The notes under the pieces: model-generated
What the model saw: only the letters and a program-made list of their open reading frames with translations
Database searches by the model: none
Told to the model about the DNA's origin: nothing
In this document: piece after piece, positions 11,293-41,195 of the stretch
Position numbering within the stretch: the first letter of the stretch is position 1
Layout of the letters: each line of letters opens with the position of its first letter
Made by a program: the position numbers and the translations under genes
IMG/VR virus record: IMGVR_UViG_3300020202_000061
Span: 250,950 to 314,949 of that record
Reading direction: 5' to 3' (one strand)
Length of the DNA stretch: 64,000 nucleotides
From: a virus

Positions 11293-11370
11293 ACGCTATA
11301 TACTAAGAGGCACCGAGGGTTTCAGATGCCTCTATGGGGATTCCAAATCAACAACGGGGTCGAACAACGA

Positions 11371-13305
11371 ATGTCTAATCTCTTCGCGGATTTCAAGACA
11401 ACTTTCGAAAAAACCAGGAAAACCGAACTCTCTCTCCAGGAATACTTGGACCTGTGCAAACAGGATCGAATGGCTTACGCCTGGGCGGTGGAGAGAATGC
11501 TGGCGGCTATCGGCGAGCCCAAGCTAGTTGACACGTCCGAGGACCCGCGCCATTCCAGAATCTTCCTGAACCGCACCATCAAGGTGTATGACGTGTTCAA
11601 GGATTTCTACGGGATGGAGGCGACCATCGAAAAGATCGTCGCCTTCTTCATGAAGGCCGCTCAAGGTCTGGAAGAGAAGAAGCAGGTTCTCTATCTGATG
11701 GGGCCGGTTGGATCGGCTAAGTCCTCTCTGGCAGAGCGTCTCAAGGCTCTGATGGAGAAGATGCCGATCTACGTGCTCAAGGCGGGTGATCAAATCAGCC
11801 CGGTGTTCGAGAATCCCTTGGGTCTGTTCGATCCGAACGTGTGGAGTGATCGCCTCCAAGAGGAATACGGGATTCCTCGTCGTTATCTGACCGGGTTGAT
11901 GTCGCCTTGGGCGGTAAAGCGCCTGAACGAGGACTTCGACGGGGATATCAGCAAGTTCAGTGTGGTGAAGCTCTACCCGAGCAAGCTCAAGCAGATAGCG
12001 ATCTCCAAGGTCGAACCCGGTGACGAGAACAACCAAGACATTTCGTCTCTGGTCGGTAAGGTTGATATCCGCAAGCTGGCGGAGTTCTCCGCTCGTGATA
12101 CCGATGCCTACAGCTACTCCGGTGGTCTCTGCTTGGCCAACCAGGGCGTGCTGGAGTTCGTCGAGATGTTCAAGGCACCGATCAAGATGCTGCATCCGAT
12201 GCTCACCGCGACCCAGGAGGGCAACTACAACGGCACCGAGGCGATCTCTGGTATTCCGTTCCAGGGTGTGATTCTGGCCCACTCCAACGAATCCGAATGG
12301 GAGTCGTTCAAGAGCAACAAGAACAACGAGGCATTCCTCGACCGCATCAGCATCATCAAGGTCCCTTACTGCCTGCGTGTCACGGACGAGACCAAAATTT
12401 ACCAGAAGCTCTTGCGTGATTCGTCCCTGGACAAGGCTCCATGCACACCCAAGACGCTGGAATTGCTCTCCCAAATGAGCGTGCTTTCCCGTCTGATCTA
12501 TCCGGAGAACTCTTCGATCCATTCGAAGATGAAGGTCTACGATGGTGAGAACATCAAGGAAACCGATCCCTACGCCAAATCTGTTCAGGAATATCGTGAA
12601 CTGGCCGGGGTCAACGAGGGTATGACCGGTCTCAGCACCCGCTGGGCTTTCAAGGTGCTGTCATCGGTGTTCAATTATGATCCGAACGAGATCGGCGCGA
12701 ATCCGGTCCATCTGTTCCGTATCTTGGAGGACAAGATCACTGAGGAACAATTCCCGAAGGAAGTCGAAGAGGACCTTCGTGAACACCTCCAGTGGATCAA
12801 GGCCAAGTACATCGATTTCATCGGCAATGAAATCCAGGTTGCCTACCTGGAGTCCTACACCGAATACGGCCAGAACATGTTCGACCGCTACATCGTCTAT
12901 GCGGATCATTGGATCGAGGATCGGGACTATCGTGATTCCGAGACCGGCGAGATGTACAACCGCGAAACCCTGAATAAGGAACTCGAAAAGATCGAGAAGC
13001 CCTCCGGTATCGCGAATCCCAAGGAATTCCGTAACGAGGTGGTCAACTACTCTCTCCGTTACAAGGCCAACCACGGCAAGTATCCGAGGTGGAACTCCTA
13101 CGAGAAGCTCAAGGAAATCATCGAGAAGAAGATGTTCGCGAACATCTCTGATCTCCTGCCGGTGATCTCGTTCGAGAAGAAATCCTCCGAGGAGCACGAG
13201 AAGAAGCACAAGGATTTTGTGCAGCGCATGAAAGAGAAGGGATACAGCGAGCGCCAGACCCGTATCGTCGTGGACTGGTTCATGAAGGTACAGAAGTCCA
13301 ACTGA
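11371..13305 (+). CDS. prkA: PrkA/YeaG-family serine protein kinase
   Basis: N-terminus LQEYLDLCKQDRMAYAWAVERMLAAIGEP and P-loop YLMGPVGSAKSSLAERLK parallel E. coli YeaG; alternative start 11326. Confidence 0.85.
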   Translation: MSNLFADFKTTFEKTRKTELSLQEYLDLCKQDRMAYAWAVERMLAAIGEPKLVDTSEDPRHSRIFLNRTIKVYDVFKDFYGMEATIEKIVAFFMKAAQGLEEKKQVLYLMGPVGSAKSSLAERLKALMEKMPIYVLKAGDQISPVFENPLGLFDPNVWSDRLQEEYGIPRRYLTGLMSPWAVKRLNEDFDGDISKFSVVKLYPSKLKQIAISKVEPGDENNQDISSLVGKVDIRKLAEFSARDTDAYSYSGGLCLANQGVLEFVEMFKAPIKMLHPMLTATQEGNYNGTEAISGIPFQGVILAHSNESEWESFKSNKNNEAFLDRISIIKVPYCLRVTDETKIYQKLLRDSSLDKAPCTPKTLELLSQMSVLSRLIYPENSSIHSKMKVYDGENIKETDPYAKSVQEYRELAGVNEGMTGLSTRWAFKVLSSVFNYDPNEIGANPVHLFRILEDKITEEQFPKEVEEDLREHLQWIKAKYIDFIGNEIQVAYLESYTEYGQNMFDRYIVYADHWIEDRDYRDSETGEMYNRETLNKELEKIEKPSGIANPKEFRNEVVNYSLRYKANHGKYPRWNSYEKLKEIIEKKMFANISDLLPVISFEKKSSEEHEKKHKDFVQRMKEKGYSERQTRIVVDWFMKVQKSN

Positions 13306-13316
13306 GGGCTATCATA

Positions 13317-14606
13317 GTGACCACGGTCATTGACAGACGTAAGACCGACCGCCAGAAGAACCTCTCCAATAGGCAGAGGTTCATCAAAAGAGCCAAGGAA
13401 GCGATCAAGAAGTCGATCCGTGGAGCCATCCTCAATAAGGATCGCTCGATCAAAGACTCATCCGGCGGTAATGTTCGAATCCCCAACAAAGGGACGACAG
13501 AGCCGAATTTCCGCAATGGAGACGGTGGTCGTAAGATCATCGTTCGTCCGGGTAATCCAGGCACTGTGCCGGGTGACAAGATTCCACGTCCCAGAAAGGA
13601 TCAGACTTCGGGCCGTGGTAACAGTGATCCATCCAAAGACCCCGCTGAGTTGATGGATGAGTTCGAGTTCACGCTGACCCGTGAGGAATTTCTGGACTTC
13701 TTCTTTGAGGACCTGGAATTGCCCAACTTGGTCAAGACCGCCCTCAAAGAGGTGGTCGAGTACAAATGGTCCCGTTCGGGATTTGCCTCGGTCGGTATGC
13801 CGTCGAATCTCGACATTACCCGAACCTTCATCAATTCGATGGGTCGCCATTTCGCTCTGGCCGGAGCCTACCAGAAAAAGATCGACGAACTTCGCGCTAA
13901 TGGTGGATCGGAAGAGGATATCGCGCTCTGGGAGAAGAGGAAGCGGACCATCCCGTTCATGGATGACGTGGACCTGCGCTATCGCCTGTTTGTGAAGCAG
14001 CCCAAGCCGATCACCAAAGCGGTAATGTTCTGTCTGATGGACGTATCTGGCAGTATGGGCGAGTACGAGAAGGACTTGGCCAAGCGTTTCTTCATGCTCC
14101 TCTACATGTTTCTGGAGCGCAAATACGAGTCGGTCACCGTGGTGTTCATCCGTCATACCACCGAAGCCAAAGAGGTGGACGAGCAGGAGTTCTTCTACTC
14201 GAAAGAATCAGGTGGAACCGTGGTCAGCACGGCTCTGGAAATGACTGCTGATCTGATTCAGCGGCGCTTCAACAGTTCAGACTACAACATCTACGTGAGC
14301 CAGTGTTCGGACGGCGACAATGCCTACGATGACAACTCCGTGTGCACCCAGATCATCCGTGAGGATATTCTGCCTTATGTCCAGTATTTTGCGTATGTCC
14401 AGGTCGGACATCAGCGCGATGAGATGGCCAACATGTGGGGTGTGTTTGCGGGTCGTCTTGGGAACACCACGAGCACGAATTCCCTCTACGAGGTTTATAA
14501 GGAGATCGAGAAGAATACCTCCCATTTCAAGGTGAAGAACCTGAATGGTCCTGCCGACATCTACCCGGTGTTTCGCGAACTCTTTGAGAAGGACATCAAG
14601 GTATGA
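13317..14606 (+). CDS. yeaH: YeaH/YhbH family protein (DUF444, UPF0229)
   Basis: VIDRRKTDRQKNLSNRQRF…EFLDFFFEDLELPNL…VMFCLMDVSGSM…FFYSKESGGTVVS…DIYPVFRELF colinear with E. coli YeaH. Confidence 0.85.
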   Translation: MTTVIDRRKTDRQKNLSNRQRFIKRAKEAIKKSIRGAILNKDRSIKDSSGGNVRIPNKGTTEPNFRNGDGGRKIIVRPGNPGTVPGDKIPRPRKDQTSGRGNSDPSKDPAELMDEFEFTLTREEFLDFFFEDLELPNLVKTALKEVVEYKWSRSGFASVGMPSNLDITRTFINSMGRHFALAGAYQKKIDELRANGGSEEDIALWEKRKRTIPFMDDVDLRYRLFVKQPKPITKAVMFCLMDVSGSMGEYEKDLAKRFFMLLYMFLERKYESVTVVFIRHTTEAKEVDEQEFFYSKESGGTVVSTALEMTADLIQRRFNSSDYNIYVSQCSDGDNAYDDNSVCTQIIREDILPYVQYFAYVQVGHQRDEMANMWGVFAGRLGNTTSTNSLYEVYKEIEKNTSHFKVKNLNGPADIYPVFRELFEKDIKV

Positions 14607-16093
14607 GCCTGCTCTGGAATGATAATGAATGGACTTTCCCGCTCATCGACAAGGTCTACAAGGAGATCGAGCAGATCGGCGTGGGTGAGATGGGTCTGGA
14701 CATCTTCCCGAATCAGATCGAGGTCATCAGCAGTGATCAGATGCTGGACGCTTATGCAAGCCATGCCATGCCAGTCATGTATAAGCACTGGTCCTTTGGC
14801 AAGTCGTATTCGGTCAACAAGAAACTCTATGAGAACGGTCAGCAGGGTCTGGCCTACGAGGTCGTAATCAACTCGAATCCCTGCATTGCCTATCTCATGG
14901 AGGACAACACCATGACCATGCAGGCTTTGGTCATGGCCCATGCCAGCATCGGTCACAACAACTTCTTCAAGACTAACTACCTGTTCCAGCAGTGGACCGA
15001 TCCGGATGGGATCATCGACTACCTGATCTTCGCCAAGAATTATGTGGCGAAGTGTGAGGAGCGATACGGTGCCGAACGAGTCGAGGAAGTTCTCGATTCC
15101 TGTCACGCTCTCATGGACCAGGGTATGGACCGCTTTAAGCGAGCCCGCAAACGTTCCCGTCAGGAGGAGAAGCTCCGTGCGGCCGAACGTGAAGCCTATC
15201 ACCAAAGTCGTGTGAGTGAGCTTTGGCCGGACACCTGGAAGTCCGAGACCCCGGCCCAGAAGGAAGAACGCAAGAAGCGGATTCTTCCGGAGCCCGAGGA
15301 CAACATCCTCTACTTCATCGAGAAGAACTCGCCGATCCTGGAGCCGTGGGAACGAGAGATCGTTCGTATCGTCCGTAAGGTATCGCAGTATTTCTGGCCT
15401 CAGATGCAGACCCAGGTCGGTAATGAGGGCTGGGCCACCCATACCCATTACTTCATTATGAATCGTCTCTACGAGAAGGGTCTGATCTCGGACGGTTCTC
15501 TGTTGGAGTTCTTCAAGTCCCACACGGGCGTTATCGCGCAGTATCGCATGCAGCGTCTGAACCCGTACTGCCTGGGATTCAACATTTTCCGCGACATCAA
15601 GCGTATGTGCGAGAAACCCACCGATGAGGATCGTGAATGGTTCCCCGATCTGGTCGGGATGAACTGGCTGGAAGCCGCGAAGGACGCGCGTGAGAACTAC
15701 AAGGATGAGAGCCTGATCCTCCAGTACCTCAGCCCCAAGGTGATCCGCGATCTTAAGCTTTTCTCGATCCTGGATGATTACGGCACGGACTCGATGAACT
15801 ATATCGTCCAGAACATCCACGACCGGGAAGGCTACAAGGAAGTTCGTCGATCCCTCTCTCGCAACTACGACATCAACATGAGAATTCCACAGATTCAGGT
15901 GTCGGATGTCAATGTGGATGGGGATCGCAAACTGATCCTTCGCCATACCCGTCACAACTATGTGCCGCTGGATCAGGCCGATCTCAAGGAAACTCTCCTC
16001 CATGTGAGGCGTCTCTGGGGGTTTGCGGTGCGTCTGGACTTCTACAATCCCGGCGCGGTCAGTCCCACGGATTGGGTAGCGGTGGGTGAATAA
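14603..16093 (+). CDS. spoVR: SpoVR/YcgB family protein
   Basis: 496 aa; conserved SpoVR stretches (MYKHWSFGKSY, GHNNFFK, GWATHTHY). Confidence 0.85.
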   Translation: MSLLWNDNEWTFPLIDKVYKEIEQIGVGEMGLDIFPNQIEVISSDQMLDAYASHAMPVMYKHWSFGKSYSVNKKLYENGQQGLAYEVVINSNPCIAYLMEDNTMTMQALVMAHASIGHNNFFKTNYLFQQWTDPDGIIDYLIFAKNYVAKCEERYGAERVEEVLDSCHALMDQGMDRFKRARKRSRQEEKLRAAEREAYHQSRVSELWPDTWKSETPAQKEERKKRILPEPEDNILYFIEKNSPILEPWEREIVRIVRKVSQYFWPQMQTQVGNEGWATHTHYFIMNRLYEKGLISDGSLLEFFKSHTGVIAQYRMQRLNPYCLGFNIFRDIKRMCEKPTDEDREWFPDLVGMNWLEAAKDARENYKDESLILQYLSPKVIRDLKLFSILDDYGTDSMNYIVQNIHDREGYKEVRRSLSRNYDINMRIPQIQVSDVNVDGDRKLILRHTRHNYVPLDQADLKETLLHVRRLWGFAVRLDFYNPGAVSPTDWVAVGE

Positions 16094-20093: not shown

Positions 20094-20243
20094 ATGGTAG
20101 AACGAGGCGACAAGATCACCCTGAAAGAGGCGATTGCGGAAGCGCAACGCGGAACTCTGAAACAGCGAGTCGCCCGACATCGCAAACGCCTGAAACGCAA
20201 GTATGGACTCGGACCCAAGCCGAAACGCTCCAAAACCCCTTGA
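20094..20243 (+). CDS. hypothetical small basic protein (49 aa)
   Basis: ATG 20094; Lys/Arg-rich; 3' end runs into the tRNA promoter. Confidence 0.25.
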   Translation: MVERGDKITLKEAIAEAQRGTLKQRVARHRKRLKRKYGLGPKPKRSKTP

Positions 20244-20268
20244 CATCCTCGGGGTTATCCTCTAAATA
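20240..20268 (+). promoter_or_regulatory. sigma70-like promoter driving the class II tRNA (CGT)
   Basis: TTGACA 20240-20245; spacer tcctcggggttatcctc; TAAATA. Confidence 0.65.
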
Positions 20269-20277
20269 CCCCGTTAT

Positions 20278-20363
20278 GCCGGGATGGCTGAGTGGTCGAA
20301 AGCAGGCGTTTCGTAAGCGTCCGAAGCAATTCCTCGCAGGTTCGAATCCTGTTCCCGGCTCCA
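20278..20363 (+). tRNA. class II (Ser-type scaffold, long variable arm) tRNA with anticodon CGT
   Basis: 86 nt; acceptor gccggga/tcccggc; Ser-like D-arm tggctgagtggtcgaaagc; anticodon stem ggcgt/gcgtc with loop ttCGTaa; variable arm about 15 nt; T-arm gcaggttcgaatcctgt; CCA. Confidence 0.7.
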
Positions 20364-24961: not shown

Positions 24962-24990
24962 TTGATTTTGAGCCGGATCACGCGTAAATA
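24962..24990 (+). promoter_or_regulatory. sigma70-like promoter driving the class II tRNA (TGT)
   Basis: TTGATT 24962-24967; 17-nt spacer; TAAATA 24985-24990. Confidence 0.55.
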
Positions 24991-24998
24991 AGAACTGC

Positions 24999-25084
24999 GC
25001 CAGGATGGCTGAGTGGCCGAAAGCAGAGCCTTTGTAACGCTCCGGGGAAACCCCACGCAGGTTCGAATCCTGTTCCTGGCTCCA
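24999..25084 (+). tRNA. class II (Ser-type scaffold) tRNA with anticodon TGT; paralog of the 20278 gene
   Basis: 86 nt; acceptor gccagga/tcctggc; D-arm tggctgagtggccgaaagc; anticodon stem gagc(c)/(c)gctc with loop ttTGTaa; long variable arm; T-arm gcaggttcgaatcctgt; CCA. Confidence 0.7.
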
Positions 25085-25092
25085 ATATTCCC

Positions 25093-25121
25093 TTGACATA
25101 TCCTAGGGTTTCTGGTAGACT
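25093..25121 (+). promoter_or_regulatory. sigma70-like promoter
   Basis: TTGACA 25093-25098; spacer tatcctagggtttctgg; TAGACT. Confidence 0.6.
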
Positions 25122-25146: not shown

Positions 25147-25431
25147 ATGGTCACCGAAGCCCAACTCAACGACTTCATCGCGGGTTGCAGCCGGATTTCC
25201 GGCTCGGACTATTCCTTCTCTTTCGACAACTCCAAGGGTTCCAAGTTCGTTCGGATCGTTCGCGAGGGCGGATGCCAGCGTTCGGTCCACTGCTTCATCG
25301 ACCGCCAAACCGGCGACGTGCTCAAGGCGGCGGGCTGGAAGGCCCCGGCCAAGCATGCCCGTGGCAACCTGTTCGACGCCAAGCAGGGCCTGGGCCTGAT
25401 GGGTCCGTATGGCCCGGCCTATCTGAGGTAG
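25147..25431 (+). CDS. hypothetical protein
   Basis: ATG 25147 with RBS aggagg. Confidence 0.5.
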   Translation: MVTEAQLNDFIAGCSRISGSDYSFSFDNSKGSKFVRIVREGGCQRSVHCFIDRQTGDVLKAAGWKAPAKHARGNLFDAKQGLGLMGPYGPAYLR

Positions 25432-29649: not shown

Positions 29650-29737
29650 GGAGAGTAAACCCCTGAGGTTGGGGTGCCGCCTGGAAAGCGGTCAGGACCT
29701 GAAAGGGTCTACGGTTCGAGTCCGTTGCTCTCCTCCA
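29650..29737 (+). tRNA. tRNA-Ser (GGA), class II
   Basis: acceptor ggagagt/gctctcc; anticodon stem gccgc/gcggt with loop ctGGAaa; long variable arm; T-arm acggttcgagtccgt; CCA. Confidence 0.8.
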
Positions 29738-30023: not shown

Positions 30024-30428
30024 ATGGATCAATTCTCTATCGGCTGGCTCGCTGGAATTATTGACGGTGAAGGCACTGTCACAATTGACAAAGAATCCAA
30101 TCGTTATCGCCGACCAGTCATAAGCGTATCATCTACAGACATCGAGATTTTGAACCGTATTCAGGGAATGATCGGTGGCAGTATAACTGTGAAAAATCGT
30201 GAACGAGCGCCACATCACAAACTAGCATATATGTGGAAGATGCATGGTTCTCAAAAAGTGATTGAGGTTTTGAAAATCATTGCTCCGCATATGAGTTGTC
30301 CGAAGAAAAAGAATCGAGCAAATTTCATCCTTGAGAATTACCGAACGCTAACACCTCGTAATGGAAAATATACCGAACAAATGAGAATAGATCGTCTCCA
30401 ATTTGAAGAACAGTTTTTTCATGTCTGA
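30024..30428 (+). CDS. LAGLIDADG homing endonuclease (single-motif)
   Basis: LAGIIDGEG motif at residues 9-17; ATG only 1 nt after the CCA of tRNA-Ser(TGA); AT-rich codon usage unlike its flanks. Confidence 0.8.
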   Translation: MDQFSIGWLAGIIDGEGTVTIDKESNRYRRPVISVSSTDIEILNRIQGMIGGSITVKNRERAPHHKLAYMWKMHGSQKVIEVLKIIAPHMSCPKKKNRANFILENYRTLTPRNGKYTEQMRIDRLQFEEQFFHV

Positions 30429-39937: not shown

Positions 39938-40275
39938 TGCTGGTAAACCTGATCGATGCGCGGTCGAATCGCTACGATGTCCATTGTGATGCGGAGCTTC
40001 GACCATCCTGGTTGGACAACGGATTGCCCGGCGCAACGCAATTCCCGGTGATCCGACCGAACACGGACATGGCCAAGCCCATGTTGTCTCTGCACATGCC
40101 CAACACCTGCTTGATCGAGATCATCAACCTCTGCCAGACCCTGGGATTTCCGGTCACCGCATATCTCTATGATCGGGGAACTCAGACCCGAATCCAGACC
40201 GAATACAAGCAGGTCGAAACCCTTCTGGAGCAGACAACCACAGAGAAAATCAACGCTCCAGAAAAAACCTCTTGA
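39937..40275 (+). CDS. hypothetical protein
   Basis: ORF 112 aa. Confidence 0.45.
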   Translation: MLVNLIDARSNRYDVHCDAELRPSWLDNGLPGATQFPVIRPNTDMAKPMLSLHMPNTCLIEIINLCQTLGFPVTAYLYDRGTQTRIQTEYKQVETLLEQTTTEKINAPEKTS

Positions 40276-40300
40276 CTTCCCGAACGGTTTCCCCTAAATA
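40272..40300 (+). promoter_or_regulatory. sigma70-like promoter of the main tRNA operon
   Basis: TTGACT 40272-40277; spacer tcccgaacggtttcccc; TAAATA 40295-40300. Confidence 0.65.
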
Positions 40301-40304
40301 CCCA

Positions 40305-40542
40305 TCACAAGCGGTGCCCAGCGGAGATGGTTGGGAGTAATTAAATGGTGAGTAATCATCAGCCGCTTCAACTTTTGAGGAACGAGTTACCACAATGACC
40401 CTGATTCGACGCAAACGAAAGATTAGCGCCTAATCACTCCGTCAGTCCACGGAGTGGTTCTAGGCTCCGTGGGTAATGGTACTCTCCCTAACTCCCACCT
40501 AAATCTGAGATAGGACGCCCCCACAAGGGGTTGTTGCTGTTT
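40305..40542 (+). ncRNA. structured leader of about 240 nt upstream of the tRNA cluster (function unknown)
   Basis: lies between promoter and first tRNA; mutually exclusive hairpins actccgt/acggagt versus ccacggag/ctccgtgg; long-range aagcgg/ccgctt pairing; cccc-acaa-gggg hairpin. Confidence 0.35.
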
Positions 40543-40619
40543 GTTCCCGTAGCTCAACTGGATAGAGCACCAGACTACGAATCTGGCGGTTGGGGGTTCG
40601 ACTCCCTCCGGGAACGCCA
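40543..40619 (+). tRNA. tRNA-Arg (ACG)
   Basis: acceptor gttcccg/cgggaac; D-arm tagctcaactggatagagc; anticodon stem ccaga/tctgg with loop ctACGaa; T-arm gggggttcgactccctc; CCA. Confidence 0.85.
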
Positions 40620-41119: not shown

Positions 41120-41195
41120 GCCAGATTACAGTTTAGTGGTAGAACACGCGGCCGATAACCGTGGAGCGGGGGTTCGATTCCCTCATCTGGCACCA
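41120..41195 (+). tRNA. tRNA with anticodon GAT (Ile-type) and atypical features
   Basis: 76 nt; acceptor gccagat/atctggc; CCA; anticodon stem cgcgg/ccgtg with loop ccGATaa (C33); 2-nt insertion before D-stem gttt/gaac. Confidence 0.6.

What the first reader, a model, noticed from the sequence alone, without database searches (positions are those of the whole stretch)
24999..25084. Second Ser-scaffold tRNA with Thr anticodon (TGT), paralog of the 20278 gene
Same 86-nt architecture and T-arm as the 20278 gene, with anticodon loop ttTGTaa and compensatory anticodon-stem substitutions. Together the pair would cover ACG and ACA. It is preceded by promoter TTGATT-17-TAAATA at 24962-24990.
Basis: seen in the sequence. 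Interest (0 to 1): 0.75.

Follow-up and report, generated by a model that had tools for sequence, protein, structure and literature searches.

The report
Long-armed threonine tRNA in jumbo phage
This is a real, conserved phage tRNA gene that almost certainly carries threonine to ACA/ACG codons, but it has the extra "long variable arm" that textbooks reserve for serine, leucine and tyrosine tRNAs, and I found no paper describing the phage and bacterial family it belongs to.

Summary
Window 24999-25084 (+) is an 86-nt tRNA with anticodon UGU (ARAGORN; Rfam 49.5 bits). It is a paralog of the CGU gene at 20278. The upstream TTGATT-17-TAAATA is one of seven copies of a motif that sits before tRNA genes.

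The "Ser scaffold" reading is only partly right. The D-arm sequence is the one seen in phage tRNA-Ser(GCU). The acceptor end is Thr-type: G1-C72, C2-G71 (a published SerRS antideterminant), G5-C68 and U73. The 14-nt variable arm has tRNA-Tyr geometry, not Ser.

It belongs to a family of at least 120 distinct long-arm tRNA-Thr genes, found in phage contigs and in Kiritimatiellia chromosomes. All stems covary, including the extra arm. Searches that left the acceptor free still returned only Thr-type ends.

Between the window and a relative, ACA/ACG codons exchange with other Thr codons (64 times), rarely with Ser (5). In one close relative the same promoter-flanked slot holds an ordinary 75-nt tRNA-Thr(UGU).

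Best reading: a working tRNA-Thr of unusual shape. The purpose of the extra arm is unknown. I found no prior description.

The parts
24962..24990 (+). Promoter-like element TTGATT (24962-24967), 17-nt spacer, TAAATA (24985-24990). It ends 8 nt before the tRNA.
   Evidence: Sequence. It is one of 7 copies of TTGA-N18-20-TAAATA in the window against 0.05 expected, and six copies lie just upstream of tRNA genes. The hexamers are identical in L240, L241, L242, L243 and L244, while the sequence upstream of the -35 hexamer diverges. The generic sigma-70 scan does not call it. Transcription was not tested.
24999..25084 (+). tRNA-Thr(UGU), 86 nt, with a long variable arm and an encoded CCA (25082-25084). 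The discriminator is U73 (25081).
   Evidence: ARAGORN. Rfam RF00005 scores 49.5 bits. The minimum-free-energy fold gives the acceptor, anticodon, variable-arm and T hairpins, but pairs 9-12 with 17-20 instead of the cloverleaf D-stem. Orthologs in L241, L243 and L244 carry compensatory changes.
24999..25005 (+). Acceptor stem 5' strand GCCAGGA. It pairs with 25074-25080 (UCCUGGC), giving G1-C72, C2-G71, C3-G70, A4-U69 and G5-C68.
   Evidence: Sequence. Rfam alignment. Compared with the Thr and Ser identity sets of PMC9976931.
25008..25024 (+). D-arm GCU-GAGUGGCCGAA-AGC. It has a 3-bp stem, A14, G15 and G18G19, and its sequence is the type seen in phage tRNA-Ser(GCU).
   Evidence: The motif search returned 52 loci, nearly all tRNA-Ser(GCU/ACU). 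Domain comparison.
25026..25042 (+). Anticodon arm GAGCC-UUUGUAA-CGCUC. The anticodon UGU is at 25033-25035, with U33 and A37. The stem has 4 bp plus a C31.C39 mismatch.
   Evidence: The mismatch is retained in L241 while pairs 28:42 and 30:40 change compensatorily. It lacks both the P2-OLD CNG motif and the AriB UAAUC|A site.
25043..25056 (+). Variable arm, 14 nt: C-GGG-GAAA-CCC-CAC. This is 1 unpaired base, a 3-bp stem (a 4th G-C pair is possible), a GNRA-type loop and 3 unpaired bases ending in C48.
   Evidence: All 3 stem pairs show changes on both sides in the family alignment. Geometry statistics. The third stem pair is G:C in the window and A:U in L241. G15:C48 covaries with A15:U48 across the family.
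25057..25073 (+). T-arm GCAGG-UUCGAAU-CCUGU, identical to that of the paralog.
20278..20363 (+). Paralog: tRNA-Thr(CGU), 86 nt, with the same architecture. Its variable arm is C-GAA-GCAA-UUC-CUC.
   Evidence: ARAGORN. Rfam scores 51.8 bits. The ortholog in L099 has two compensatory double changes in the acceptor stem. Copies are also present in L240 and L241, and L236 carries a sequence identical to the L099 gene.
20240..20268 (+). Promoter-like element TTGACA-17-TAAATA of the paralog.
   Evidence: The hexamers are conserved and the spacer has diverged in L099.

Best explanation
The gene encodes a functional threonine tRNA of unusual shape, a tRNA-Thr(UGU) with a class II (long variable arm) body, in a jumbo phage of about 401 kb.

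Inferred steps, none shown experimentally:
- It is transcribed from its own TTGATT-17-TAAATA promoter, a motif this phage places in front of its tRNA genes.
- It needs little 5' trimming and no CCA addition.
- The host ThrRS charges it with threonine, using the acceptor pairs G1-C72, C2-G71 and G5-C68 and anticodon bases G35 and U36.
- It probably receives t6A37, like other tRNAs that read ANN codons.
- It reads ACA, and ACG by wobble, as threonine. Its CGU paralog reads ACG.

These are the phage's minor Thr codons: ACA is 0.23% and ACG 1.32% of codons, against 3.11% for ACC.

The extra arm is a 3-bp stem with a GAAA loop and tRNA-Tyr-like geometry. It is conserved within this tRNA family, and its purpose is unknown. 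SerRS probably does not use it, because the arm is short, C2-G71 is an antideterminant and G73 is absent.

The most plausible biological role is the usual one for phage tRNAs: keeping ACA/ACG decoding going during infection. That includes the case where host tRNA-Thr(UGU/CGU) is depleted by tRNA-targeting defences, which are documented for these two isoacceptors in E. coli.
For: (1) It is a tRNA by two methods.

(2) Family. A pattern search found 24 viral contigs. A genome scan found 24 genomic contigs, including solitary copies in Kiritimatiellia between the FGAM synthase, CstA and KdsA-type genes. A metagenome scan that fixed only the D-arm and NGUAA found 22 more.

(3) Covariation on 21 distinct members. 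97.3% of cells pair, against 71% in shuffles. The covariation score is 0.689 against 0.178. The variable-arm helix has 3 of 3 pairs with changes on both sides. The Levitt pair is G15:C48 in 100 genes and A15:U48 in 13, of 122 (0 of 2000 shuffles reach this). U8, GG, U33, A37, G53 and C61 are present in 118-122 of 122, and A14 in 114.

(4) Identity. In the searches that left the acceptor free, all members start with G and nearly all with GC. The discriminator is U or A, except one C among the readable 3' ends. None has the Ser-type GGA...G73. Ordinary Thr tRNAs in the same arrays share GCC...U73-CCA. The published sets are: Thr(Bac) G1-C72, C2-G71, G4-C69, G5-C68, G35, U36; Ser(Bac) G73, G2-C71 and others; C2-G71 is an antideterminant for SerRS.

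(5) Codons. Over 5,598 orthologous codons between the window and L099, ACA/ACG change to Thr codons 64 times and to Ser 5 times. ACC/ACT change to Thr 112 times and to Ser 29 times. In PrkA, ACG sits at Thr columns conserved in 60/60 and 59/60 homologs.

(6) Natural swap. In the 409-kb relative L240, the same slot between the same conserved promoters holds a 75-nt class I tRNA-Thr(UGU).

(7) Orthologs in L241, L243 and L244 keep the gene with compensatory changes.

(8) A family member in a cultured phage, Vibrio phage 2.275.O, is annotated tRNA-Thr.

(9) Host tRNA-Thr(UGU) and (CGU) are targets of P2-OLD and PARIS AriB, and phage tRNA-Thr(UGU) rescues infection (PMC12445682, PMC12409363). Both window genes lack both cleavage motifs.
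Against: - No expression, processing, modification or charging data exist. The amino acid attached is inferred from identity rules established in E. coli and T. thermophilus, and the host is unknown.
- The TGT copy has A4-U69 rather than the G4-C69 listed for bacterial Thr identity.
- ThrRS is a class II synthetase that approaches from the variable-arm side. Whether it tolerates a 14-nt arm was not tested. The Kiritimatiellia chromosomal copies and the L240 swap are indirect arguments only.
- The core features SerRS is said to read are partly present: a class II tertiary structure, C11-G24, C72 and R4-Y69. Some serylation cannot be excluded.
- The codon tests exclude reassignment but not low-level mistranslation.
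- The -10 hexamer is atypical for sigma-70.
- No terminator follows the gene, so how the 3' end forms is unresolved.
- Only 10 large ORFs of the window were screened for synthetases, and the rest of the 401-kb genome was not seen.
Confidence: 0.8

Rival explanations
1. The long arm is an adaptation and not a neutral shape. It changes how proteins dock on the anticodon-stem and core side of the tRNA. That would let the phage tRNA-Thr(UGU/CGU) escape host tRNA-targeting defence nucleases or toxins, or be told apart from host tRNA by a phage factor, while still being charged with Thr. This refines the best explanation and does not exclude it.
For: - tRNA-Thr(UGU) is the preferred target of P2-OLD and a prime target of PARIS AriB, and Thr(CGU) is a minor AriB target. 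Phage tRNA-Thr(UGU) variants rescue infection.
- A shortened anticodon stem contributes to OLD resistance. The window TGT gene has a 4-bp stem that L241 retains.
- Both window genes lack the CNG and UAAUC|A motifs.
- The arm is maintained by compensatory change.
- Long arms recur in other phage tRNAs, including Asn(GUU) and Lys(UUU), which are also AriB targets.
Against: - As a family, the long-arm Thr(UGU) genes do not avoid the known motifs. 68 of 118 carry the paired CNG, against 8 of 25 class I phage Thr(UGU).
- The same architecture occurs as a solitary chromosomal gene in Kiritimatiellia, where evading the cell's own defences is not an obvious need.
- A close relative does without it, using a class I gene in the same slot.
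- 4-bp anticodon stems are common in bacteria generally: 5.6% of tRNAs, and 18.5% of Thr-CGU.
- No nuclease is known that senses the variable region of tRNA-Thr.
Confidence: 0.2
2. This is the reading the first reader raised. The tRNA is charged by SerRS through its long arm and Ser-like D-arm, so ACA/ACG codons are read, fully or partly, as serine. That would be deliberate mistranslation or recoding.
For: - SerRS ignores the anticodon and relies mainly on the variable arm and tertiary structure.
- The D-arm sequence equals that of phage tRNA-Ser(GCU).
- C11-G24, C72 and R4-Y69 are present.
- Precedents exist: tRNA-Ser(CAG) in Candida, human anticodon variants, and nematode class II tRNAs with anticodons for neither Leu nor Ser (PMC3333845 abstract).
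Against: - G73 is replaced by U73.
- G2-C71 is replaced by C2-G71, a published SerRS antideterminant.
- G30-C40 is absent in the TGT copy.
- The arm has a 3-bp stem and 3 unpaired 3' bases, as in Tyr. Ser has 5-7 bp and 1.
- Acceptor-free searches found no member with a Ser-type acceptor.
- ACA/ACG exchange with Thr codons 64 times and with Ser 5 times, a lower Ser rate than ACC/ACT shows.
- ACG sits at invariant Thr positions of PrkA.
- A class I tRNA-Thr(UGU) replaces the gene in L240.
- ThrRS editing hydrolyses Ser-tRNA-Thr (general knowledge).
Confidence: 0.06
3. The tRNA has a non-translational job. It might donate an aminoacyl group to a phage enzyme, as Gly-tRNA does for Mom DNA modification and as the tRNAs used by Fem-type transferases do. 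Or it might act as a decoy or inhibitor of a host nuclease. The long arm would mark it for that partner.
For: - tRNA-dependent DNA hypermodification by a phage enzyme exists (PMC13219725).
- The window encodes an amidoligase-like ORF and a glycosyltransferase.
- The PARIS paper raises the idea that over-expressed phage tRNAs may act as competitive inhibitors.
Against: - All elements needed for decoding are intact: U33, A37, a 7-nt loop (a mismatch-closed loop in the TGT copy), the T-loop and an encoded CCA.
- The anticodon is strictly conserved as UGU in 118 of 122 distinct members, with CGU in the other 4. That points to selection on decoding.
- The gene sits in tRNA arrays at the place of the Thr(UGU) isoacceptor.
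- It is interchangeable with a normal tRNA-Thr(UGU).
- No partner enzyme was identified.
Confidence: 0.04
4. It is a decaying or non-functional gene copy.
For: The C31.C39 mismatch. The thermodynamic signal of the single sequence is modest (z = -1.67). A relative replaced it.
Against: - It is conserved with compensatory substitutions in L241.
- The promoter is conserved.
- The Rfam score is well above threshold.
- All universal tRNA positions are present.
- The mismatch is itself conserved, and 4-bp stems are common in functional tRNAs.
Confidence: 0.03

Closest known systems
Ordinary (class I) bacterial and phage tRNA-Thr(UGU), such as the 75-nt gene in relative L240, the 76-77-nt Thr(CGU/GGU) genes in arrays L033, L061 and L071, and the phage tRNA-Thr(UGU) that rescue P2-OLD and PARIS toxicity
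   Same: The UGU anticodon in a UU-UGU-AA loop with A37. G1-C72, C2-G71, and a U (or A) discriminator with encoded CCA. The same place in phage tRNA arrays. In L240, the very same promoter-flanked slot.
   Different: A 14-nt stem-loop variable arm instead of 4-5 nt, and a 3-bp D-stem with an enlarged D-loop as in class II tRNAs. Published classifications list Thr among the short-arm tRNAs.
Bacterial-type tRNA-Tyr (class II)
   Same: The variable-arm geometry is 1 unpaired base, a 3-bp stem, a 3-4-nt loop and 3 unpaired bases, with median length 14. In several contigs, such as L033, the D-arm of the long-arm Thr is nearly identical to that of the Tyr tRNA next to it.
   Different: The Tyr determinants A73 and G34/U35 are absent: the discriminator is U73 and the anticodon is UGU. 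The acceptor stem is GCC..., not GG...
Phage tRNA-Ser(GCU)
   Same: The D-arm sequence GGCUGAGUGGYCGAAAGCA. Both read ANN codons and have a U36-A37-A38 loop context. Both are class II.
   Different: The acceptor is GGAG.. with G73 in Ser, against GCC.. with U73 here. The Ser arm has 5-7 bp and 1 unpaired 3' base, with median length 18. The anticodon differs.
Class II tRNAs with 'wrong' anticodons that recode or mistranslate: nematode nev-tRNAs (PMC3333845), Candida tRNA-Ser(CAG) (PMC11415595) and allo-tRNAs (PMC5389517)
   Same: A long variable arm combined with an anticodon that does not belong to Ser, Leu or Tyr.
   Different: In those cases the body keeps the identity of the donor (Leu or Ser), so the codon is re-read. 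Here the acceptor end matches the anticodon's amino acid, and the codon evidence says ACA/ACG remain Thr. Allo-tRNAs have 8/4 or 9/3 acceptor/T stems, whereas this one is 7/5.

Membership tests
tRNA (Rfam RF00005) | Cloverleaf fold scoring above the family's gathering score | tested here: met
   49.5 bits against 29. ARAGORN also calls it.
tRNA (Rfam RF00005) | Conserved tertiary nucleotides: U8, A14, G18G19, U33, G53-C61, T-loop UUCRANY, and the R15:Y48 pair | tested here: met
   All are present in the window gene. Across 122 family members: U8 121, A14 114, GG 122, U33 121, G53 118, C61 121. G15:C48 or A15:U48 occurs in 113 of 122, and 0 of 2000 shuffles reach that.
Class II (type II, long-variable-arm) tRNA | Variable region of 10 or more nt forming a stem-loop | tested here: met
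   14 nt, C-GGG-GAAA-CCC-CAC. The stem covaries across the family, with 3 of 3 pairs changed on both sides. Definition from PMC7609411 and PMC12360207.
Bacterial tRNA-Thr (ThrRS substrate) | G1-C72 and C2-G71 | tested here: met
   GCCAGGA pairs with UCCUGGC. Determinants from PMC9976931 Table 1.
Bacterial tRNA-Thr (ThrRS substrate) | G4-C69 | tested here: not met
   The TGT gene has A4-U69. The CGT paralog has G4-C69. In the family this pair is G:C in 16, A:U in 4 and G:U in 1 of 21.
Bacterial tRNA-Thr (ThrRS substrate) | G5-C68 | tested here: met
   (invariant in alignment A2, although the search pattern required it there).
Bacterial tRNA-Thr (ThrRS substrate) | Anticodon G35 and U36 | tested here: met
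   UGU at 25033-25035.
Bacterial tRNA-Thr (ThrRS substrate) | Actually aminoacylated with threonine | not testable with these tools
   Indirect evidence only: codon exchange, the slot swap with a class I Thr(UGU), and chromosomal copies in Kiritimatiellia.
Bacterial tRNA-Ser (SerRS substrate) | Discriminator G73 | tested here: not met
   U73 at 25081. Among members retrieved without constraining the acceptor end, no readable 3' end shows G73.
Bacterial tRNA-Ser (SerRS substrate) | G2-C71, described as absolutely conserved in most bacterial tRNA-Ser | tested here: not met
   It has C2-G71, which is listed as an antideterminant against E. coli SerRS.
Bacterial tRNA-Ser (SerRS substrate) | Large variable region of Ser type | tested here: not met
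   The arm is 14 nt with a 3-bp stem (4 at most) and 3 unpaired 3' bases. In 104 Ser tRNAs of the same data set the stem is 5-7 bp in 89, and 1 base is unpaired 3' in 81. Whether a given SerRS would still accept it is not testable here.
Bacterial tRNA-Ser (SerRS substrate) | C72, R4-Y69 and C11-G24 | tested here: met
   C72, A4-U69 and C11-G24 are present. These are shared with many tRNAs.
Bacterial tRNA-Ser (SerRS substrate) | G30-C40 | tested here: not met
   The TGT gene has C30-G40. The CGT paralog has G30-C40.
Bacterial tRNA-Tyr | A73 with G34 and U35 | tested here: not met
   It has U73 and anticodon UGU. Only the arm geometry is Tyr-like.
allo-tRNA (Mukai et al., PMC5389517) | 8/4 or 9/3 acceptor/T-stem configuration | tested here: not met
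   Standard 7/5 configuration.

The most novel reading that the evidence does not exclude
Long-arm tRNA-Thr(UGU) would be a distinct and so far undescribed structural class of threonine tRNA, whose extra arm is functional. Two versions are open. In one, the arm is a shield or identity tag that lets phage (and Kiritimatiellia) tRNA-Thr escape, or be singled out by, proteins that act on the anticodon-stem and core face, such as defence nucleases of the OLD, AriB or Septu kind, toxins, or modification enzymes. In the other, ThrRS in these systems has co-evolved to read the arm. Together with the long-arm Ile(UAU), Asn, Cys and Lys genes and the short-arm Leu tRNAs seen in the same arrays, this would mean that the class I / class II division of tRNAs is fluid in phages and is used in the arms race over tRNA.
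Probability: 0.2. Interest if true: 0.8.

Novelty: new variant of a known kind. Interest (0 to 1): 0.55.

Why it matters
The reviews I read limit long variable arms in bacteria to tRNA-Leu, Ser, Tyr and Sec. For SerRS, TyrRS and LeuRS the arm is part of how the right tRNA is chosen.

A long-arm threonine tRNA that covaries in every stem bears on those rules. It is present in more than a hundred phage contigs, in a cultured 349-kb Vibrio phage, and as a chromosomal gene in Kiritimatiellia. If it works as inferred, ThrRS, EF-Tu and the ribosome accept a class II body carrying Thr identity, and SerRS must be kept off it by the acceptor end and the arm geometry alone.

That gives a natural test case for identity rules. 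It may also offer a scaffold for engineering orthogonal tRNAs.

tRNA-Thr(UGU) is a favoured target of anti-phage nucleases. The family therefore offers a concrete way to ask whether tRNA shape, and not only anticodon-stem sequence, is part of phage counter-defence.

For annotation there is a practical lesson. A long arm together with a Thr anticodon should not be read as a mistranslating Ser tRNA.

Tried and rejected
- Near-identity and distant DNA searches of the region and of the tRNA against GenBank phages found nothing. Relatives were found only through pattern scans and neighbouring proteins.
- I considered a shifted reading of the loop as a Tyr anticodon (GUA). It requires a stem with several mismatches, so I rejected it (sequence).
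- Gly identity (U73, G1-C72, C2-G71) was rejected, because position 3 is C-G rather than G-C and the anticodon lacks C35 and C36.
- Avoidance of the P2-OLD CNG motif or the AriB UAAUC|A site does not explain the long arm. The family as a whole does not avoid them: 68 of 118 have the paired CNG.
- The Mom-type tRNA-dependent DNA modification paper concerns Gly-tRNA-Gly and offers no link to Thr.
- The cyanobacterial tRNA survey reports only 4-6-nt variable loops for tRNA-Thr.
- Seven literature searches found no description of a long-arm tRNA-Thr. This is absence in a limited library, not proof of novelty.
- The PrkA-only codon test had too few ACA/ACG codons (5) to stand alone. I replaced it with the window-versus-L099 comparison.
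- Single-sequence folding is only weakly better than shuffles (z = -1.67 and -0.97). For the CGT copy the minimum-free-energy fold does not give the cloverleaf. The structure therefore rests on covariation, not thermodynamics.
- The metagenome scan did not recover the TGT ortholog of the 409-kb relative. I reached it through the neighbouring protein instead.
Full report
**1. What is at the coordinates**

Window 24999-25084 (+) reads GCCAGGA-UG-GCU-GAGUGGCCGAA-AGC-A-GAGCC-UUUGUAA-CGCUC-CGGGGAAACCCCAC-GCAGG-UUCGAAU-CCUGU-UCCUGGC-U-CCA. ARAGORN calls it an 86-nt tRNA-Thr(tgt). Rfam's tRNA model scores it 49.5 bits against a gathering score of 29.

The gene at 20278-20363, tRNA-Thr(cgt) at 51.8 bits, is 84% identical. 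The two genes compare as follows:
- The T-arm is identical.
- The D-arm differs at one base.
- The acceptor stem differs by one compensatory pair (4:69, A:U versus G:C).
- In the anticodon stem, pairs 28:42 to 30:40 are changed and stay paired.
- The variable-arm stem is re-paired at two of its three pairs.

Such stems are common in bacterial tRNAs: 5.6% overall, and 18.5% of Thr-CGU (PMC13092985).

**2. The promoter**

TTGATT-17-TAAATA is present at 24962-24990. A generic sigma-70 scan does not list it, because TAAATA matches only 3 of 6 positions and lacks the final T.

The motif TTGA-N18-20-TAAATA nevertheless occurs seven times in the window, all on the + strand, against 0.05 expected by chance. 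Six copies end 5-23 nt before a tRNA gene or cluster: Asn 259, Ile 16423, Trp 17765, Thr-CGU 20278, Thr-UGU 24999 and Ser 29650.

Upstream of both Thr genes the two hexamers are conserved in related contigs. The spacer of the CGU gene's element has diverged in L099, and the sequence upstream of the TGT gene's -35 hexamer diverges among relatives. I take this as a genuine tRNA-gene promoter type of this phage. Transcription was not tested.

A strong consensus promoter, TTGACA-17-TAGACT at 25093-25121, starts 8 nt after the CCA with no terminator in between. How the 3' end forms is therefore open.

**3. What the window is**

The window carries 17 tRNA genes. It also encodes a family-B DNA polymerase, a PrkA/DUF444/SpoVR trio, a glycosyltransferase and an amidoligase-like ORF. 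No aminoacyl-tRNA synthetase domain appeared among the ten large ORFs scanned.

One ORF finds its best matches in jumbo phages: XacN1, and a 635-kb uncultured phage. The protein next to the tRNA is 100% identical to one on a 401,308-bp contig (ENA ERZ27257313). That contig is identical to the window across the tRNA region, so it is the source genome or the same strain. A 409,210-bp JGI contig is a syntenic relative, with PrkA 92% identical.

**4. A family, not a one-off**

- A structure-aware pattern found 24 viral contigs with 83-89-nt tRNA-Thr genes, all with anticodon UGU. Many contigs are 240-370 kb. That pattern fixed the GCCRGG acceptor, U73-CCA, NGUAA, and spacing that only a long arm allows.
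- In large arrays the long-arm gene sits beside ordinary 76-77-nt Thr(CGU) and Thr(GGU) genes (L033, L061, L071).
- The same kind of pattern found only 24 hits in 185,579 species genomes.
  - About 17 are in gut or rumen MAGs: 12 labelled Kiritimatiellia or Kiritimatiellae, and the rest 'uncultured bacterium' or Lentisphaerae carrying the same sequence. There the gene is solitary.
  - In L083 it lies on the same contig as the FGAM synthase, CstA and a KdsA/DAHP-family gene, which is a chromosomal context.
  - Four other hits are Betaproteobacteria-binned contigs with dense tRNA arrays.
- Those patterns fixed the acceptor, so I repeated the search with the acceptor free.
85 of the 87 pattern-bearing tRNAs are long-arm Thr(UGU), and 77 are distinct.
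  - A metagenome scan that fixed only the Ser-type D-arm and NGUAA gave 22 long-arm Thr genes: 18 UGU and 4 CGU.
  - In both sets every gene starts with G and nearly all start GC. Among 3' ends that can be read, the discriminator is U or A, with one C. None has the Ser-type GGA...G73 end.
- A cultured phage, Vibrio phage 2.275.O (349 kb), has a member annotated simply 'tRNA-Thr'.
- In loci fetched for an unrelated reason (L001-L052), 1 of 18 distinct phage Thr(UGU) genes is long-armed. This is a minority form.

**5. Structure is under selection**

On 21 distinct members, 97.3% of cells pair, against 71% in shuffles. The covariation score is 0.689 against 0.178, and slid controls fall to 37-50% paired. 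The variable-arm helix has 3 of 3 pairs with changes on both sides.

The arm's consensus is one unpaired base, a 3-bp stem, a loop that is most often 4 nt (GNRA-type in 49 of 116 genes), then 3-4 unpaired bases. In the window genes it reads C-GGG-GAAA-CCC-CAC and C-GAA-GCAA-UUC-CUC.

The last base of the arm behaves as N48. G15:C48 occurs in 100 genes and A15:U48 in 13, of 122, and 0 of 2000 shuffles reach that. The universal positions are kept.

Single-sequence thermodynamics is weak (z = -1.67 and -0.97), so the case for the structure rests on covariation.

**6. Which scaffold?**

- The D-arm motif GGCTGAGTGGNCGAAAGCAG is carried in phage contigs almost only by tRNA-Ser(GCU/ACU).
- The arm geometry of the Thr family is 1 / 3 bp / 3-4, with median length 14. 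That matches tRNA-Tyr (1 / 3 bp / 3, median 14).
- It does not match tRNA-Ser (1 / 5-7 bp / 1, median 18) or tRNA-Leu (0 / 3-5 bp / 1-2).
- In other members, such as L033, the D-arm matches the neighbouring Tyr gene.

The body is a generic class II core and is not specifically a Ser body.

**7. Which amino acid?**

The published determinants (PMC9976931) are:
- Bacterial Thr: G1-C72, C2-G71, G4-C69, G5-C68, G35, U36.
- Bacterial Ser: G73, C72, G2-C71, R4-Y69, C11-G24, a large variable region, G30-C40.
- C2-G71 is an antideterminant for E. coli SerRS, and G1-C72/G2-C71 are 'absolutely conserved' in most bacterial tRNA-Ser.

The TGT gene meets all the Thr determinants except G4-C69, where it has A4-U69. 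For Ser it fails G73, G2-C71, G30-C40 and the Ser-type arm. Ordinary Thr tRNAs in the same arrays share GCC...U73-CCA.

Three independent lines agree that the codons mean Thr:
- (a) In PrkA, aligned to 60 homologs, two ACG codons sit at Thr columns conserved in 60/60 and 59/60, and none at conserved Ser. There are only 5 ACA/ACG codons, so this is weak alone.
- (b) Over 5,598 orthologous codons between the window and L099 (83% amino-acid identity), ACA/ACG change to other Thr codons 64 times and to Ser 5 times. ACC/ACT change to Thr 112 times and to Ser 29 times (Fisher p = 0.016, in the direction of fewer Ser exchanges for ACA/ACG).
- (c) In the 409-kb relative, between the same conserved upstream promoter and the same downstream promoter, the gene is an ordinary 75-nt tRNA-Thr(UGU) with GCU...U73-CCA (Rfam 41.8 bits). 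The long-arm CGU paralog is kept there.

Other relatives keep the long-arm TGT gene. L241 has compensatory changes at 28:42, 30:40 and the third arm pair, and it retains C31.C39. The L099 CGU ortholog has two compensatory double changes in the acceptor stem.

These data exclude reassignment of ACA/ACG to Ser and argue strongly for Thr charging. They cannot exclude low-level serylation.

**8. Likely role**

ACA (0.23%) and ACG (1.32%) are the minor Thr codons here, against 3.11% for ACC. The pair therefore covers the rare codons.

Host tRNA-Thr(UGU) is the preferred target of P2-OLD, which cleaves at a paired CNG motif at positions 28-30 and 40-42. It is also a prime target of PARIS AriB, which cleaves at U36-A-A-U-C|A41. 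Thr(CGU) is a minor AriB target. Phage tRNA-Thr(UGU) genes rescue infection, and a shorter anticodon stem contributes to OLD resistance (PMC12445682, PMC12409363).

Both window genes lack both motifs. The family as a whole does not: 68 of 118 carry the paired CNG. Avoiding these motifs therefore does not explain the long arm. Whether the arm itself affects nuclease docking is untested.

**9. Known or new?**

Reviews and surveys I could read list only Leu, Ser, Tyr (bacteria) and Sec as long-arm tRNAs, and they report 4-6-nt variable loops for Thr. Seven full-text searches found no description of a long-arm tRNA-Thr.

Database records already contain such genes, annotated as plain tRNA-Thr. I rate it a new variant of a known kind, with the caveat that the library searched is incomplete.

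**10. Verdict**

It is not a Ser-identity tRNA.
- Best explanation: a functional tRNA-Thr(UGU) with a class II body (confidence 0.8).
- Interest is 0.55. The function is ordinary, but the architecture and its distribution should surprise tRNA specialists, and the questions it raises are directly testable.

Noticed in passing
window 40272-40542: A seventh copy of the tRNA promoter motif (TTGACT-17-TAAATA, 40272-40300) is followed by about 240 nt with no tRNA and no Rfam match before the Arg tRNA cluster at 40543. It could be an unknown leader or small RNA.
   Followed up: partly
window 41121-41190: Rfam calls a tRNA here (41.4 bits) that ARAGORN does not report. It lies between tRNA-Lys(ctt) and tRNA-Ile(gat).
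   Followed up: no
window 29650-29737: The tRNA-Ser(GGA) called by ARAGORN does not reach the general tRNA model's threshold. It is best matched by the tRNA-Sec model, at 40.5 bits (below its 47-bit threshold). It has a long D-stem and a U discriminator, which makes it an odd Ser tRNA.
   Followed up: no
window 30024-30428: The ORF directly after the Ser tRNA cluster reads like a LAGLIDADG homing endonuclease ('LAGIIDGEGT'). This is judged by eye only.
   Followed up: no
loci L008, L009, L012, L016, L021, L060, L069, L075, L091, L095, L096 and others: Many phage and array tRNA-Ile(UAU) genes are 89-94 nt with 21-24-nt variable regions (17 of 27 distinct, with A73 in those listed). Long-arm versions of Cys(GCA) (6/29), Asn(GUU) (10/56) and a few Lys, Trp, Met and Pro also occur. 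In clear examples the discriminator suits the anticodon's amino acid: U73 in Cys of L069, L091 and L152, and G73 in Asn of L013, L033 and L139.
   Followed up: partly
loci L006, L010, L014, L075, L091, L095 and others: Conversely, many phage tRNA-Leu genes are only 75-78 nt, with no long arm. For example, Leu(UAG) is long in only 14 of 36 distinct genes. The class I / class II boundary looks fluid in phage tRNA arrays.
   Followed up: partly
L075, L091, L095, L096 (Betaproteobacteria-binned MAG contigs): Dense arrays of 11-28 tRNA genes within a few kb, in a conserved order (...Met, Ile-UAU long, Thr-UGU long, Cys, Gln, His, Arg...). They may be phage or mobile tRNA-array units binned into bacterial MAGs.
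   Followed up: no
window 11326-16093: A complete PrkA / DUF444 (YeaH-like) / SpoVR (YcgB-like) trio lies in a jumbo phage. PrkA is 65-67% identical to the bacterial proteins, and the trio is conserved in the 409-kb relative.
   Followed up: partly
window 25093-25121: A near-consensus extended -10 promoter (TTGACA-17-TAGACT) starts 8 nt after the tRNA's CCA and drives the DUF7717-family ORF at 25148-25431. It is conserved in the five relatives whose sequence reaches this element.
   Followed up: partly
L028 and L041 (contigs of 176 and 96 kb): These contigs carry tRNA(CUA) and tRNA(UCA) suppressor-type genes (called Pyl and SeC by ARAGORN) next to a long-arm Asn(GUU) with a Ser(GCU)-type D-arm. 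They may be stop-codon-recoded phages.
   Followed up: no
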